Notes: generated by a model from the letters alone, not told the origin. A stretch of 64,000 nt of DNA from Promethearchaeota archaeon (GCA_008080735.1 SHMW01000011.1:1-64000); one strand, 5' to 3'; shown: positions 33,453 through 43,687, counted from the first letter of the stretch. A program made the numbers and translations.

Positions 33453-33902
33453 TTAGATTGGTTTAAAATATTCAATATCCGTGATCTTTTTCTGACGTCG
33501 ATCTTTAAAGACAGCTTCAACTCGCATACCCTTTTTAAATTTCTCATGATCAGATTCATTGATAATATGCACGAATCCTGTATCGGCACCGTCCAGAACA
33601 ATGATTGCGTATCCAAAGGGCGGTTTTAAAGGCATAACATCGGTTGAGTGGTTGATAATTGTAAATCCTTCAACGGTTCCTTGCTTTCCTACTTCCGTCC
33701 ACTCTTCCATTTTTTCAAAACACTCAAAACATACCATTTTTGGAGGAACATATACCTTTCCGCATTTTGGGCATTTCACACCCATGATTTTATCTTCCTT
33801 TCCGATAGCTTCCATAAATCTCTCAACATAATCACCCGCTGTATGCTTATAAGGAACCTTAATTCTTCCTCTATATATTTTTTTCTCCTTTTCTTCACTC
33901 AT
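33453..33902 (-). CDS. DUF35 Zn-ribbon/OB-fold protein
   Basis: GVKCPKCGKVYVPP...CFEC, LDGADT and ITDI.YF motifs. Confidence 0.92.
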   Translation of the reverse strand: MSEEKEKKIYRGRIKVPYKHTAGDYVERFMEAIGKEDKIMGVKCPKCGKVYVPPKMVCFECFEKMEEWTEVGKQGTVEGFTIINHSTDVMPLKPPFGYAIIVLDGADTGFVHIINESDHEKFKKGMRVEAVFKDRRQKKITDIEYFKPI

Positions 33903-33918
33903 TTTTATTTACCTCCTT

Positions 33919-34404
33919 TTATTCCTCCCTGATTATTTCAAAATACGGAATATCTCCTAAGGTCCCTTCCATCTCGTCTTTAAAGACTGCTTTCACTCTC
34001 TGACCGATTTTCATTTTATTATGGTCCTTTTCATTGATAAAATGCATAGTATAAGTATCTGCACCGTCTAATTGAAAAAGTCCATATCCATATGGAAATG
34101 GTCTCATCCCTCCTGTTTGAGGATCTACAAATGGATAATTTACAACTGTAAAGCCTACTAAAGTACCAGTAGGAGGAACCTCAACCATATCATCCGCAGT
34201 CATACGAACTACACATTCTGCACATACACCACGTGGAGGAAAATGCATTTTTCCACATTTAGGACATTTACTTCCAAGTAATTTCCGTTCCTTCTTAAGT
34301 GTATCAAAAAATTTTACCGATAATTTTCCTATCGCATATTTATATGGAAGGTCAGTCTTCCATCTTATTTCAAATGGTTTTTCTTTTTCATTTTTTTTTC
34401 CCAT
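33919..34404 (-). CDS. DUF35 Zn-ribbon/OB-fold protein
   Basis: GSKCPKCG...FPPR.VCAEC and LDGADT motifs. Confidence 0.92.
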   Translation of the reverse strand: MGKKNEKEKPFEIRWKTDLPYKYAIGKLSVKFFDTLKKERKLLGSKCPKCGKMHFPPRGVCAECVVRMTADDMVEVPPTGTLVGFTVVNYPFVDPQTGGMRPFPYGYGLFQLDGADTYTMHFINEKDHNKMKIGQRVKAVFKDEMEGTLGDIPYFEIIREE

Positions 34405-34411
34405 TTTTTAA

Positions 34412-35605
34412 TCACCCCGGTGGTTCATTGCCTAATATAGCTAATTCGGTCCATAATGAGCCTCCAAATCCCATCGCGAGCGCCTTTTCTGCATCTGGCA
34501 CTTGTCGCTTTTCTCCCCGATCCATAACTTGTAACGCAGCTTCCGCTATTCGAACCAAAGCAGTTGCACCAATCGGATTAGTACTTAAAACTCCTCCTGA
34601 AGGATTGACAGGTAATTCGCCGCCCATTTGAGTGATGCCTTCTCTGAGAATTTCACCACCTTTACCAGGTTCAGCAAAACCCAAAGCTTCGGTCCAAGAT
34701 AATTCTGCCCAAGACGTTGGTTCATATACTTCTGCCACGTCTAAATCTTTTATTGGATCTTTTATCCCCGCCTTTTTATAAGCTTTTTTAGAGGCAAATG
34801 TGGCTGTGGGTAAATCATACATCTTATCATCGCATCCAAAGGTATAATAATGTGCAGTTGCAACGGAATGGAACCATGCTGGATTATCTCGGATCTTTTT
34901 AGCTTCACTTTCTTTAGCATAAACCACGGCACATGCGCCCTCGCTTTGAGGACAACAATCGTGGAGTCGTAATGGGTAAGAAATCGTTTGAGAACCCATT
35001 ACATAATCCAAGGTAATATTAGGCATTTGTAAATGCGCAAAAGGATTATTCGCAGCATTACTACGATTTTTCACTGTGACCATTGCTGCTGTCTCAGGGC
35101 TCACATTATATTCATTCATATACATATTCGCCATAAGCGCAAGCGGTCCCAATGCACCTGCAAGGGAAGGGCGCTCCCACACAGGATCAAAAGCAGTAAT
35201 GATACCAGTCGTTGCACCGCCTTCATTTAATTTCTCCCAGCCTACCACTAGCACTTTATCGTATATACCCGAGGCTACATTATAATATCCACTTATCCCC
35301 AAGGAACTCCCCGTTGTACCACCAGTTGCGATTTTCACAACTGGTTTCATAAACCCGGGGGCAGCATCAATTCCACACCACATCTCTGAGAAGTTAATAC
35401 CTTCGAAATGATCCATTTGGCATCTAACGTCGATAAGACGTTAAATGTTACCTATTAGAATAGCATCAATGTCTTTAGGCTCCAATTGAGCATCATCTAA
35501 AGCCATTTTTACTGCTTCATAGACCATTTCGGGGATATTCACATCCCTCCGTTTACTTCTGAACTTGGTTTGTCCGATTCCTACTATTCCTACTTTTTCT
35601 GGCAT
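34412..35605 (-). CDS. SCP2-type thiolase-fold protein (Ltp3-like), split: join(35447..35605, 34412..35416), 387 aa after removal of a 30-nt insert
   Basis: The track ORF (35416) lacks the thiolase N-terminus. That N-terminus is in the same frame from ATG 35605 (MPEKVGIVGIGQTKF...DIDAILIGN), which overlaps the upstream stop (TAATG) and has a GGAGGTGA SD. It is separated from the rest by an in-frame TAA at 35441-35443. Confidence 0.88.
35417..35446 (-). other. Putative 30-nt bulge-helix-bulge mRNA intron
   Basis: mRNA reads GGUA-AC^A-UUUAACGUC-UUAUC-GACGUUAGA-UGCC-AA^A-UG: a 4-bp central helix, two 3-nt bulges and a 9-bp inner stem. Canonical cuts restore GGU AAC AUG GAU. Confidence 0.8.
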
Positions 35606-36762
35606 TACTTTTCACCTCCAAAAATTAATACACAATTGCCCTGAGAACAGATTCCATTCATCCCATTTGCAAGTCCGAGATTTGCATTGGGAACTTGGCG
35701 TTTTTCAGCTTTTCCCATCAATTGAAGCGCGATCTCTGCCACGCGAATTAATCCATTTGCCATCGTGGGATTACTTGAAAGAACACCACCCGAAGGATTT
35801 ACGGGTATGGACCCGTTCATTTCAGTTTCACCGCTATCAATAAAATTGCCTCCTTGACCTTTCTTGCAAAAGCCGAGTGCCTCATAACTCATTAATTCAT
35901 GGGTTGAAAATGCATCATAGACCTCTGCCAAGTCCAATTCTTTCTTAGGATCTGTGATTCCCGCCATTTTATATGCTTCCTTCGCTGCTCCTTCTAATCC
36001 TATCAAATCGCTCATATTTCTATGTCCTAAGTAATATGCATCTGTACAACTTGCATAACCCTTTAACCATACGGGACTATCTGTTAACTCATTTGCCTTC
36101 TCTTCATTTGCTAATAACATTGCAACCGCACCATCAGAAAACGGTGGAAAATCTAATTCTTTCAAGGGAAATGCGACCATCGGAGAATTCAATACATCCT
36201 CTAAGGAGACCGCCTCTTGAAGATGGGCATAAGGATTCGATAAGGCGTTTTTTCGATTTTTCACAACAACCTTTGCCGCCTGCTCTTCTGTCACTCCATA
36301 CTTAGTCATATACATATTTGCCATCAGCCCCGCCGCAGAGATTTGGTCAAGACCAAGATGTCTTTGGAAAAACGGGTCGAAAATACTATTATTGATCAGA
36401 TATTGGTCACCCTCTGAACATTTAGTATGGGACACCACCAAGACGGTATCATATTCTCCGGAAAGCACTCGCATAGCACCATATACATATGCAAAGGCGC
36501 CATCTCCCGATACTCTTGATTCTGCCTTTCGTACGGATCCAACAGCATCTTGTATCGCCATATTTGCTATCGTTCGACCATCGTTGAAATCATTAGAGCT
36601 GGAAATGACACATCCAACATCATCATTGGTTATTCCCAATTGATTATGCAACTCTTTTACCACCTCAAATACAAGCTCCGATATGGTCAATTCGATCTTT
36701 TCCTGCTCATATTTAGATTGTGAAACACCACATATTGCTACGTTTCCTTCCATGACTTTCAC
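35605..36762 (-). CDS. SCP2-type thiolase-fold protein (Ltp4-like)
   Basis: S.DF.DGRTI, V.GDGAFA, VKNR.NA..NP.A, EVYDAF and PVNPSGG motifs. Confidence 0.9.
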   Translation of the reverse strand: MKVMEGNVAICGVSQSKYEQEKIELTISELVFEVVKELHNQLGITNDDVGCVISSSNDFNDGRTIANMAIQDAVGSVRKAESRVSGDGAFAYVYGAMRVLSGEYDTVLVVSHTKCSEGDQYLINNSIFDPFFQRHLGLDQISAAGLMANMYMTKYGVTEEQAAKVVVKNRKNALSNPYAHLQEAVSLEDVLNSPMVAFPLKELDFPPFSDGAVAMLLANEEKANELTDSPVWLKGYASCTDAYYLGHRNMSDLIGLEGAAKEAYKMAGITDPKKELDLAEVYDAFSTHELMSYEALGFCKKGQGGNFIDSGETEMNGSIPVNPSGGVLSSNPTMANGLIRVAEIALQLMGKAEKRQVPNANLGLANGMNGICSQGNCVLIFGGEK

Positions 36763-42523: not shown

Positions 42524-43687
42524 TCACCTCTTTAATACCATAACGGTTGCCATTTGCATTATATCTCCCCAAGCTTGACCAACTCCGATTCTTGGGTCTC
42601 CAGGGATTTGTCTTTTTCCTGCTTTCCCAGCTAATTGCCAATATAACTCGCAAACCTTTTGTCCCATGGTTGCTGCGATCGGATTCCCTACACCAAGTAA
42701 ACCACCTGAAGGACAAATAGGTAAATCTCCATCTCTCTGGGTTACCCCTTCTCGCGTGAGGATTGGGGCTTCTCCTTTATCACAGAGCAGAAGTCCTTCC
42801 ATATGATGAAGTTCTTTATAATCAAACGGATCATATGGCTCAGCAAAATCGATTTCGCGACGAGGGTTAACAATTCCCGCCATTTTATATGCCATTTTCG
42901 CAGCGAGGGAAACATAACGAGGAAAATATAGATCACGATTAGTCCACATGGTACTATCTATATTATATCCCACTCCTTCTACCCAGATGGGGTCATCAGT
43001 ATATTGGTTCACGACATCTTCAGAGCAAAATATTAAAGCTGCTGCCCCGTCACTCGGGGGACTGATATCTAATCTTTGAACGGGCCATGCCATCATTTCA
43101 GAATTTAACACGTCATCGACGGTTATATTTGGATCTGCCAATTGCGCGCAAGGATGACCTACAGCATTTCGCTTATTCTTTACGGCTACTCGAGCAATAT
43201 CTTCTTTCTTGATATTATGCACGGTCATATATCGATTCATCTCCATCGCGAAAAGCCATACTAAATTTGGATTAAGTGGTCTGTCAATGACGGGATCCCA
43301 TATATGTCTAAATGCAGTTTGAGGGTGCGGATAACACGAACCCATTTTTTCCTCAGCTATCACCATACATATATCTGCAACACCGGAAGCTACATGCCAC
43401 CATCCAGCAATAGGGGCAAATACTCCAGTCCCTCCACCGTTGAACACTCTTACATAAGGCTTTCCTGCCCCTCCAGCACCATCAAGTAAATTTTCACCTT
43501 TCATGTGGATACCGTCAAAAGCATCTGGAGCACTTCCCATTACTATCATATCGATATTTTTCTTTTCAATGCCTGCTTCTTCCATTGCCATTTTTGCTGC
43601 TAAAAAGGATAATTCTTTTCCCGTCTCTTTTAATCGTCTTCGAAAGAGTGTCATTCCCGCTCCAATTACAGCTACATCTTTTTTCAT
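42524..43687 (-). CDS. SCP2-type thiolase-fold protein (Ltp3-like)
   Basis: GSAPDAFDG, GGGTG, VKNKRNA, EPYDPF and PSGGLLG.GNP motifs. Confidence 0.92.
   Translation of the reverse strand: MKKDVAVIGAGMTLFRRRLKETGKELSFLAAKMAMEEAGIEKKNIDMIVMGSAPDAFDGIHMKGENLLDGAGGAGKPYVRVFNGGGTGVFAPIAGWWHVASGVADICMVIAEEKMGSCYPHPQTAFRHIWDPVIDRPLNPNLVWLFAMEMNRYMTVHNIKKEDIARVAVKNKRNAVGHPCAQLADPNITVDDVLNSEMMAWPVQRLDISPPSDGAAALIFCSEDVVNQYTDDPIWVEGVGYNIDSTMWTNRDLYFPRYVSLAAKMAYKMAGIVNPRREIDFAEPYDPFDYKELHHMEGLLLCDKGEAPILTREGVTQRDGDLPICPSGGLLGVGNPIAATMGQKVCELYWQLAGKAGKRQIPGDPRIGVGQAWGDIMQMATVMVLKR

What the first reader, a model, noticed from the sequence alone, without database searches (positions are those of the whole stretch)
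35414..35454. Candidate bulge-helix-bulge (tRNA-endonuclease-type) intron in an Asgard protein-coding gene
Seen in sequence: the gene at 35605 reads ...DIDAILIGN-I-STOP-RLIDVRCQ-MDHFEGIN... in a single frame. The mRNA is UA GGUA ACA UUUAACGUC UUAUC GACGUUAGA UGCC AAA UG. GGUA (35452-35449) pairs with UGCC (35422-35419) as a 4-bp helix. Each strand is followed by a 3-nt bulge (ACA, AAA). A 9-bp inner stem buries the UAA, and the outer exon helix is short (UA/UG). Established knowledge: archaeal EndA cuts BHB motifs after the second nucleotide of each bulge and RtcB ligates; the known archaeal mRNA example is crenarchaeal cbf5. Applying that rule removes exactly 35446..35417 (30 nt) and gives GGU AAC AUG GAU = IGNMDHFEGIN. 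The product is 387 aa, the same length as the paralog at 42524, whose GSAPDAFDGI aligns with a 1-residue gap. Both exons, the SD and the TAATG coupling are intact, which argues against decay. Inference: this is splicing-dependent expression of a metabolic enzyme in the lineage closest to eukaryotes, conceptually like non-spliceosomal XBP1/HAC1 splicing. I know of no description of this for an Asgard thiolase but cannot search the literature.
Basis: partly seen in the sequence, partly recalled or inferred. Interest (0 to 1): 0.96.

Follow-up and report, generated by a model that had tools for sequence, protein, structure and literature searches.

The report
tRNA-type mini-intron in Asgard thiolase gene
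A thiolase-like gene of a Loki-type Asgard archaeon is interrupted by a 30-base hairpin shaped like the introns cut out by the archaeal tRNA-splicing enzyme. Relatives either keep this insert under selection or lack it exactly at the predicted cut points, so the mRNA is very probably spliced, which the papers I could search report for only one archaeal protein gene (cbf5).

Summary
The minus-strand gene 35605..34412 is broken by an in-frame TAA inside a 30-nt insert (35446..35417). The insert folds as a 4-bp helix, a 3-nt bulge and a 9-bp stem, followed by a second 3-nt A-rich segment.

Comparative evidence supports an intron cut by EndA and rejoined by RtcB:
- Thirteen distinct variants from Promethearchaeota (Lokiarchaeia-type) genomes and metagenomes carry an insert of exactly 30 nt at this site, each with an in-frame stop.
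- About 30 orthologs lack it and read G-N|M-D-H, the junction given by cutting after the second nucleotide of each bulge.
- Stem pairs covary, and RNAalifold finds the same fold independently.
- Both exons are under strong purifying selection (dN/dS 0.01-0.1).
- The insert is 79% conserved where fourfold-degenerate sites are saturated (34%).
- The genome encodes a crenarchaeal-type EndA alpha subunit with the Lys/Arg loop for relaxed motifs, a second EndA paralog, and two RtcB.
- Four other genes in this genome, including its only RNase HII, are split the same way.

No RNA data could be obtained, so splicing is inferred. The outer helix is only 2 bp, so the motif is relaxed. XBP1/HAC1-like regulation is unsupported. 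This scan has reported similar mini-introns in other Asgard genomes.

The parts
35447..35605 (-). Exon 1 of the thiolase-like gene (53 codons, M1 to N53); its ATG overlaps the stop of the upstream paralog (TAATG).
   Evidence: Pfam Thiolase_N profile positions 1-52. dN/dS 0.01-0.06 between intron-bearing orthologs.
35417..35446 (-). 30-nt BHB-type intron in phase 0; carries the in-frame TAA at 35443..35441.
   Evidence: Absent exactly here in about 30 orthologs. 13 variants, all 30 nt. 79% mean pairwise identity against 34% at fourfold sites. Unique in the genome.
34412..35416 (-). Exon 2 (334 codons plus stop), starting with the conserved Met of G-N-M-D-H.
   Evidence: NCBIfam NF006180 profile positions 57-387 begin at exon-2 residue 2. 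dN/dS 0.02-0.11.
35449..35452 (-). Central helix H, 5' strand (GGUA, in exon 1: Gly codon plus first base of the Asn codon).
   Evidence: Pairs with 35419-35422. Exon-intron covariation U:A / U:G / C:G at the Gly third position.
35446..35448 (-). 5' bulge ACA; predicted cut between 35447 and 35446.
   Evidence: Cutting after bulge nucleotide 2 gives the junction seen in intron-less orthologs.
35423..35445 (-). Inner hairpin h': 9-bp stem (35445-35437 with 35431-35423) and 5-nt loop (35436-35432).
   Evidence: 96.6% of cells paired across 13 variants; 3 pairs with changes on both sides. Predicted independently by RNAalifold.
35419..35422 (-). Central helix H, 3' strand (UGCC, in the intron).
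   Evidence: 96% of cells paired.
35416..35418 (-). 3' bulge or loop AAA; predicted cut between 35417 and 35416. The third A is the A of the exon-2 ATG.
   Evidence: AAA in 12 of 13 variants, AGA in one.
35414..35415 (-). Weak outer helix h, 3' strand (UG), pairing with UA at 35454-35453.
   Evidence: Only 2 bp; both pairs present in 8 of 13 variants. Not predicted by RNAalifold.
35605..36762 (-). Upstream thiolase-like paralog (41% identical), translationally coupled to exon 1.
33453..34404 (-). Two downstream DUF35-type genes (zf-ChsH2 + OB_ChsH2_C in orthologous loci), same operon.
   Evidence: Pfam labels on orthologous contigs.

Best explanation
The 30 nt at 35446..35417 are an archaeal endonuclease-type (bulge-helix-bulge, relaxed form) intron inside a protein-coding mRNA.

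Inferred mechanism:
1. In the transcript, the last bases of exon 1 (GGUA) pair with UGCC near the 3' end of the insert, and the middle of the insert forms a 9-bp hairpin.
2. This presents two 3-nt unpaired segments, 4 bp apart on opposite strands.
3. The host (alpha-beta)2 splicing endonuclease EndA cuts after the second nucleotide of each segment.
4. RtcB joins the exons and probably circularises the intron.
5. The product is GGU AAC|AUG GAU, an uninterrupted 387-aa thiolase-fold protein.

Without splicing, translation stops after 54 residues.

Shown here: the structure, its covariation, its selection, the exact agreement of predicted cuts with intron-less alleles, and the presence of the enzymes. 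Inferred: the cutting and joining.

The intron is most likely a constitutively removed passenger. Alleles gain and lose it through homologous recombination. I see no sign that it acts as a regulatory switch.
For: 1. Junction. 13 distinct variants from genomes and metagenomes carry an insert of exactly 30 nt at this codon boundary, each with an in-frame TAA or TGA. About 30 orthologs lack it and read GGN AAY ATG GAY. These include near-identical relatives (98% and 99% aa identity; L048 vs L064).
2. Structure. 94% of cells are paired, against 36-43% when the 3' partners are slid. Four pairs change on both sides, including an exon-intron pair. 0 of 500 shuffles reach the observed covariation score. 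RNAalifold returns the same 4 bp + 3-nt bulge + 9 bp fold.
3. Selection. All 7 genome-derived intron-bearing genes are otherwise intact. dN/dS is 0.01-0.11 in both exons with dS saturated. The intron is 79% identical pairwise, against 34% at fourfold sites of the same genes.
4. Dependence. The genome has no second copy closer than 41% identity.
5. Machinery. There are two EndA-domain genes. One is 1.8e-37 to the A. pernix catalytic alpha subunit, and aligns without gaps through the specific loop with Lys and Arg at the K44/R46 positions and His at the catalytic position. K44 is needed to cut relaxed BHL motifs (PMC3241643). There are two RtcB genes. 16 of 26 ARAGORN tRNA calls carry introns.
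6. Not unique in this genome. Four other genes are split by 30-32-nt inserts with the same geometry, checked per exon with Pfam or by motif: an AMP/thymidine-phosphorylase-like gene, an ABC ATPase (32 nt, frameshifting), an AAA ATPase, and the only RNase HII.
7. Chance. A motif this good occurs at 4e-5 per position and strand.
Against: No RNA evidence:
- No contig with the spliced junction of this genome was found.
- No 387-aa database protein is identical to the joined exons.

The motif is not canonical:
- The outer helix is 2 bp and incomplete in 5 of 13 variants.
- One lineage has an A.G mismatch in the central helix (2 of 13 variants).
- The single-sequence MFE fold prefers a slipped 11-bp stem.

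Exon 2 begins with AUG, and in 12 of 13 variants a second in-frame UAA abuts it. A two-polypeptide expression mode therefore cannot be excluded from sequence alone. The insert length is a multiple of three, so frame alone does not force RNA-level removal in this gene.
Confidence: 0.85

Rival explanations
1. Split gene expressed as two polypeptides. Translation ends at the UAA in the insert (54-aa product) and restarts at the AUG at 35416 (334-aa product). The two pieces assemble into a thiolase fold, and the hairpin serves reinitiation.
For: Exon 2 starts with AUG. A second in-frame UAA directly abuts it in 12 of 13 variants. Public annotation calls the two ORFs separately.
Against: The Met is ancestral: it is present in all intron-less orthologs. 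The insert holds no Shine-Dalgarno-like sequence. This model explains neither the conserved 4-bp exon-intron helix with covariation nor the 3-nt bulges. It also does not explain why intron-less alleles differ by exactly the BHB-predicted 30 nt. Other split genes in this genome have no AUG at the start of exon 2 (DKHS|TGG, DEPT|TG) or are frameshifted, so a general RNA-level mechanism is needed anyway.
Confidence: 0.05
2. Translational bypassing (hopping) over the 30 nt, as in T4 gene 60 or the yeast-mitochondrial byp elements. The peptidyl-tRNA takes off before the stop and lands before exon 2.
For: A stop codon sits right after a potential take-off codon, inside a hairpin, and the gap is short.
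Against: Take-off and landing codons do not match. The codon before the stop is AUU, AUA or UUU in different variants, while the landing position would be AUG. The only matching AUU inside the insert is followed by another stop. Bypassing does not predict the conserved exon-intron 4-bp helix or the covariation.
Confidence: 0.03
3. Dead or dying gene, an assembly artefact, or stop-codon readthrough giving a 10-residue insertion.
For: There is an in-frame stop. Two other thiolase paralogs (G000:C126 and one in G017) carry single TAA codons without any insertion.
Against: The same insert occurs in 13 independent assemblies from different studies. Both exons are under strong purifying selection at saturated dS. 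Most variants carry two in-frame stops, and the would-be 10-residue peptide is not conserved while the RNA pairing is.
Confidence: 0.02
4. RNA-level removal by an enzyme other than EndA/RtcB (another structure-specific nuclease and ligase), or a small mobile hairpin element whose excision is at the DNA level.
For: Enzyme identity is inferred, not shown. Presence and absence of the insert are patchy.
Against: The geometry and cut positions are those of EndA substrates. EndA with the broad-specificity loop and RtcB are both present. The insert has no other copy in the genome within 6 mismatches, which argues against an active mobile repeat.
Confidence: 0.05

Closest known systems
cbf5 pre-mRNA intron of Desulfurococcales and Sulfolobales (Watanabe 2002; Yoshinari 2006; Yokobori 2009, PMC2738675)
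   Same: [quoted passage not shown] It is linked to a hetero-oligomeric EndA of broad specificity. Its distribution among related species is patchy, interpreted as gain and loss.
   Different: Different gene (thiolase-fold metabolic protein, not a pseudouridine synthase) and different phylum (Asgard/Promethearchaeota, not Thermoproteota). Here at least four other genes of the same genome are split the same way. Splicing of cbf5 was shown experimentally; here it is inferred.
Non-canonical tRNA introns of Asgard archaea (PMC11291895; bioRxiv 10.64898/2026.10.13.758758) and Thermoproteales
   Same: Same motif geometry, similar size range (about 12-50 nt), and the same presumed enzymes. Asgard EndA is the (alpha-beta)2 type with the L1 loop (PMC5829648).
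   Different: The host RNA is an mRNA. [quoted passage not shown] Those papers do not report introns in protein-coding genes.
HAC1/XBP1 unconventional mRNA splicing (Ire1 plus tRNA ligase or RtcB)
   Same: Non-spliceosomal, protein-enzyme-catalysed removal of a short structured intron from an mRNA, followed by ligation by a tRNA-ligase-type enzyme. This comparison rests on my own knowledge.
   Different: A different nuclease (Ire1, twin stem-loops) and a regulated frame switch in a stress response. Here nothing indicates regulation, and the nuclease would be EndA.
Translational bypass elements (T4 gene 60; byp elements of Magnusiomyces mitochondria)
   Same: A short, stop-containing, hairpin-forming gap inside an otherwise intact ORF.
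   Different: Those elements require matched take-off and landing codons, which are not present here. They do not require a BHB geometry.

Membership tests
Archaeal EndA-type (BHB) intron | A 4-bp central helix flanked by two 3-nt bulges on opposite strands, each bulge 3' of its helix strand. | tested here: met
   GGUA/UGCC with ACA and AAA in the correct chirality. The helix is 96% paired over 13 variants, with exon-intron covariation. RNAalifold finds it.
Archaeal EndA-type (BHB) intron | Strict hBHBh' form: outer helices on both sides that close both bulges. | tested here: not met
   The inner helix h' is strong (9 bp). The outer helix h is only 2 bp and complete in 8 of 13 variants. The motif is therefore a relaxed HBh'/BHL form, which needs a broad-specificity EndA.
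Archaeal EndA-type (BHB) intron | Cuts after the second nucleotide of each bulge give a functional joined RNA. | tested here: met
   The predicted removal of 35446..35417 gives G-N|M-D-H, identical to about 30 intron-less orthologs. NCBIfam and Pfam profile positions are continuous across the exons.
Archaeal EndA-type (BHB) intron | The host encodes a splicing endonuclease able to cut relaxed motifs, plus an RNA ligase. | tested here: met
   Two EndA paralogs. The alpha-like one aligns to A. pernix EndA alpha with the specific-loop Lys/Arg and the catalytic His conserved (PMC3241643). Two RtcB genes.
Archaeal EndA-type (BHB) intron | Spliced RNA and excised (circular) intron detected; cleavage by EndA in vitro. 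| not testable with these tools
No spliced contig was found.
Pre-mRNA BHB intron (cbf5 type) | The host gene stays under purifying selection although the DNA-level ORF is interrupted. | tested here: met
   No other defects in 7 genes. dN/dS is 0.01-0.11 in both exons.
Translational bypass element | Matching take-off and landing codons flanking the gap. | tested here: not met
   AUU/AUA/UUU before the stop, against AUG at the landing position.
Repeated mobile hairpin element (MITE-like) | Multiple related copies in the genome. | tested here: not met
   No other copy within 6 mismatches of the own or the consensus insert in 4.1 Mb.

The most novel reading that the evidence does not exclude
This intron is one visible piece of a genome-wide mRNA-splicing layer in Lokiarchaeia-type Asgard archaea. 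Many protein-coding genes, including single-copy housekeeping genes such as the only RNase HII, would be expressible only after EndA/RtcB processing. These roughly 30-nt introns would spread and disappear through homologous recombination between alleles. Enzyme-catalysed mRNA splicing would then be routine in a close prokaryotic relative of eukaryotes.
Probability: 0.6. Interest if true: 0.9.

Novelty: new member of a known kind. Interest (0 to 1): 0.8.

Why it matters
In the papers I could search, archaeal protein-coding introns rest on a single gene, cbf5, in Crenarchaeota. This case is a second, well-supported one in a different phylum, and that phylum is the Asgard group from which eukaryotes are thought to descend.

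The evidence here is unusually complete for a purely comparative case. It includes exact intron-less alleles, exon-intron covariation, selection on both exons and on the intron, and a matching endonuclease.

Together with four further split genes in the same genome, it implies three things:
- Gene callers systematically mis-annotate such genes as fragments. Here they are called as a 54-aa "hypothetical protein" plus a 334-aa "thiolase C-terminal domain" protein.
- EndA and RtcB have mRNA substrates in these cells.
- Intron gain and loss in a prokaryote can be studied at population resolution. Alleles differing only by the intron exist at about 98% nucleotide identity.

It also gives a directly testable target (one junction, one 30-nt circle) for Asgard cultures or metatranscriptomes.

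Tried and rejected
2. An exact search for this genome's spliced junction in JGI metagenome contigs found nothing. All 11 members of the protein cluster were read, and no 387-aa member equals the joined exons. The closest intron-less proteins are 379/387 and 377/387 identical and come from other strains. Neither result speaks against splicing.
3. A blind genome-wide scan for BHB descriptors that rejoin open frames did not separate signal from noise. Sense and antisense-control counts were about equal: 2804 vs 2838, and 77 vs 69 after adding coding-potential filters. I therefore give no genome-wide intron count. Individual hits were checked one by one.
4. From that scan, C40:20462 is a hisF/hisH-like gene boundary, a false positive. 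C43:27371 (an acyl-CoA-synthetase-like gene) stayed unclear.
5. The in-frame TAA codons in the paralogs at G000:C126 and in G017 are single-codon substitutions with no insert. They are not introns.
6. Rfam has no family at this site, and there is no tRNA in the window.
7. The insert has no other copy in the genome and I saw no flanking direct repeat.
8. The careful tree search did not finish within the time limit, so the quick IQ-TREE tree was used.

Full report
**What is in the sequence.** On the minus strand a thiolase-fold gene starts at 35605. Its ATG overlaps the stop of the upstream paralog in TAATG, and a GGAGGTG precedes it. After 53 codons ending GGT AAC, the frame runs ATT TAA. Twenty-four bases further an ATG (35416) opens a 334-codon frame ending at 34412. 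Exon 1 matches Pfam Thiolase_N positions 1-52. Exon 2 matches Thiolase_C_1 and, from its second residue, NCBIfam NF006180 positions 57-387 of 389. The two pieces are therefore contiguous parts of one protein, separated by exactly 30 nt (35446..35417). The bulges lie 3' of each central-helix strand, as in genuine endonuclease substrates. The outer helix is only 2 bp.

**Orthologs.** The window is contig C11 of a 4.1-Mb, 140-contig genome. Named relatives are Promethearchaeota (Lokiarchaeia-type) MAGs.
- Among 40 related genomes, the ortholog (80-96% identical) carries internal TAA stops in G006, G014, G017 and G018 and none in seven others.
- Alignment shows a 30-nt insert at the same codon boundary in those four and in the window. 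The others read GGN AAY ATG GAY without a gap.
- A scan of species-representative genomes added two more carriers (9R3_44, Loki_b31). It also added about 20 more intron-less orthologs, including Jordarchaeia, a Hermodarchaeota-labelled MAG, Methanolliviera and bacteria.
- Metagenome contigs found through the 334-336-aa truncated gene calls added six further variants.
- In total there are 13 distinct inserts. All are 30 nt, and all carry TAA or TGA in frame at the fourth codon.

**Structure.** On the 13-variant alignment A2, the proposed structure has 94% of cells paired, against 36-43% when the 3' partners are slid by 1-3 columns.
- Four pairs change on both sides (C-G to U-A, A-U to G-C or U-G, and others).
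- No shuffle out of 500 reaches the observed covariation score.
- One covarying pair joins the third base of the exon-1 Gly codon to the intron (U:A, U:G, C:G). All 13 carriers use GGU or GGC, whereas intron-less orthologs use all four Gly codons.
- RNAalifold, given no hint, returns exactly 4 bp + 3-nt bulge + 9 bp.
- The outer helix is not predicted and is complete in 8 of 13 variants, so the motif is a relaxed HBh'/BHL type.
- One lineage (2 of 13 variants) has an A.G mismatch in the central helix.
- In the single sequence, the MFE fold slips by two bases.

**Selection.** The seven genome-derived carriers have no other stop or frameshift.
- Between them, dN/dS is 0.01-0.06 in exon 1 and 0.02-0.11 in exon 2, with dS above 1 or saturated. 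Exon 1 is as constrained as exon 2, which argues against a truncated protein starting at 35416.
- The insert itself is 79% identical pairwise, while fourfold-degenerate sites of the same genes are 34% identical. It is a selected RNA element.
- The genome has no closer second copy: the next paralog is 41% identical.

**Machinery.** The genome has two EndA-domain genes.
- One is closest to the catalytic alpha subunits of A. pernix, S. tokodaii and P. aerophilum.
- It aligns without gaps through the Crenarchaea-specific loop, with Lys and Arg at the K44/R46 positions and His at the catalytic position.
- PMC3241643 shows that this loop, and K44 in particular, allows cutting of relaxed BHL motifs. 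PMC5829648 reports the same L1 loop for Asgard EndA.
- The second paralog is divergent, as expected for a beta subunit.
- There are two RtcB genes, and 16 of 26 ARAGORN tRNA calls contain introns.

**The same thing elsewhere in this genome.** Following unchecked notes of this scan and my own scan, I confirmed four more split genes:
- An AMP/thymidine-phosphorylase-like gene is split between DKHS and TGG by 30 nt (C49:14401-14365).
- An ABC ATPase is split in its Walker B motif, DEPT|TG, by 32 nt, which shifts the frame (C4:57754-57716).
- An AAA ATPase has one AAA domain spread over both exons (C18:6930-6894).
- The only RNase HII gene is split inside GIDEAG|RGP by 30 nt carrying TAA and TAG, with a perfect CGGG/CCCG central helix.

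Their 3' sites are AA|A or AC|A. Exon 2 of these genes has no start codon, so a general RNA-level mechanism is required.

**Evolution.** On the gene tree, intron presence needs 7 changes, and well-supported branches alone force at least 3 (quick tree).
- Sliding identity shows mosaicism. An intron-less contig (L083) is 94-100% identical to this genome (mostly 97-100%) from 600 nt downstream of the site onward, but only 83-87% from -455 to +600.
- L079 against L011 changes from about 84% to about 98% within 100-200 nt of the site.
- L048 (no intron) and L064 (intron) are about 98% identical on both sides. They show a cluster of six substitutions in the last 31 nt of exon 1, including the Gly third base that pairs with the intron.
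- L045 and L064 share an identical intron in diverged genes.
- Presence and absence therefore seem to move by recombination between alleles.
- The insert has no other copy in the genome.

**Rivals.** Details and odds are in the Rival explanations section.
- Two-polypeptide expression cannot be excluded for this gene alone, because exon 2 starts with AUG. It does not explain the conserved exon-intron helix, the exact junction, or the other split genes.
- Translational bypassing lacks matching take-off and landing codons.
- Pseudogene, artefact and readthrough are contradicted by selection, by 13 independent assemblies, and by double stops.

**Literature.** In the library searched, coding-sequence BHB introns are documented only for crenarchaeal cbf5 (PMC2738675 and its references). 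Work on Asgard archaea describes tRNA introns only (PMC11291895; bioRxiv 10.64898/2026.10.13.758758). Follow-up agents of this scan have reported similar mini-introns in other Asgard genomes. I did not test those reports.

**What is missing.** There is no RNA or protein evidence. Splicing, enzyme identity and any regulation remain inferred.

**Verdict.** Confidence that this is an EndA/RtcB-type mRNA intron is about 0.85. It is a new member of a known but almost unpopulated kind.

Noticed in passing
G000:C49:14365-14401 (L074): An AMP/thymidine-phosphorylase-like gene is split between DKHS and TGG by a 30-nt AT-rich hairpin, with central helix UAGC/GCUA and AC|A at both sites. Glycos_transf_3 resumes at profile position 11 at exon-2 residue 1.
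   Followed up: partly
G000:C4:57716-57754 (L075): An ABC ATPase is split in Walker B (DEPT|TG) by a 32-nt hairpin insert that shifts the frame. The ABC_tran match ends exactly at the end of exon 1.
   Followed up: partly
G000:C18:6894-6930 (L076): An AAA ATPase has one AAA domain divided between two exons (profile positions 1-36 and 55-125) by a 30-nt hairpin insert with an AA|A 3' site.
   Followed up: partly
G000:C1:84810-85454 (L091): The only RNase HII gene of the genome has 30 nt with TAA and TAG inside the catalytic motif GIDEAG|RGP. The central helix CGGG/CCCG is perfect and the inner stem is only 4 bp.
   Followed up: partly
L083 vs window; L079 vs L011; L048 vs L064: Identity profiles are mosaic around the intron site. 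A diverged tract of at least 1 kb (about 85% identity) spans the site in otherwise 94-100% identical genomes. In one pair, six substitutions cluster in the last 31 nt of exon 1. This suggests the intron moves or is lost by recombination between alleles.
   Followed up: partly
G000:C126:1778-2479 (L009); G017:C101 paralog (L014:343-1446): Two thiolase paralogs carry a single in-frame TAA with no insertion (in G017 at the position of an Ala codon in the window's paralog). They may be pseudogenes, sequencing errors or something else. They are not introns.
   Followed up: partly
window 34412-36762 (-): Neither thiolase-like protein of the operon shows a Cys at the position aligned to the nucleophilic Cys of the archaeal thiolase 7yvy (KIATGGTTGS here; the best PDB match, 4yzo, also lacks it). 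With two DUF35 genes downstream, the pair may not be a classical thiolase.
   Followed up: no
public annotation of orthologs: Database records annotate the carriers as a 54-aa hypothetical protein plus a 334-aa 'thiolase C-terminal domain-containing protein'. The intron is being missed by gene callers.
   Followed up: yes
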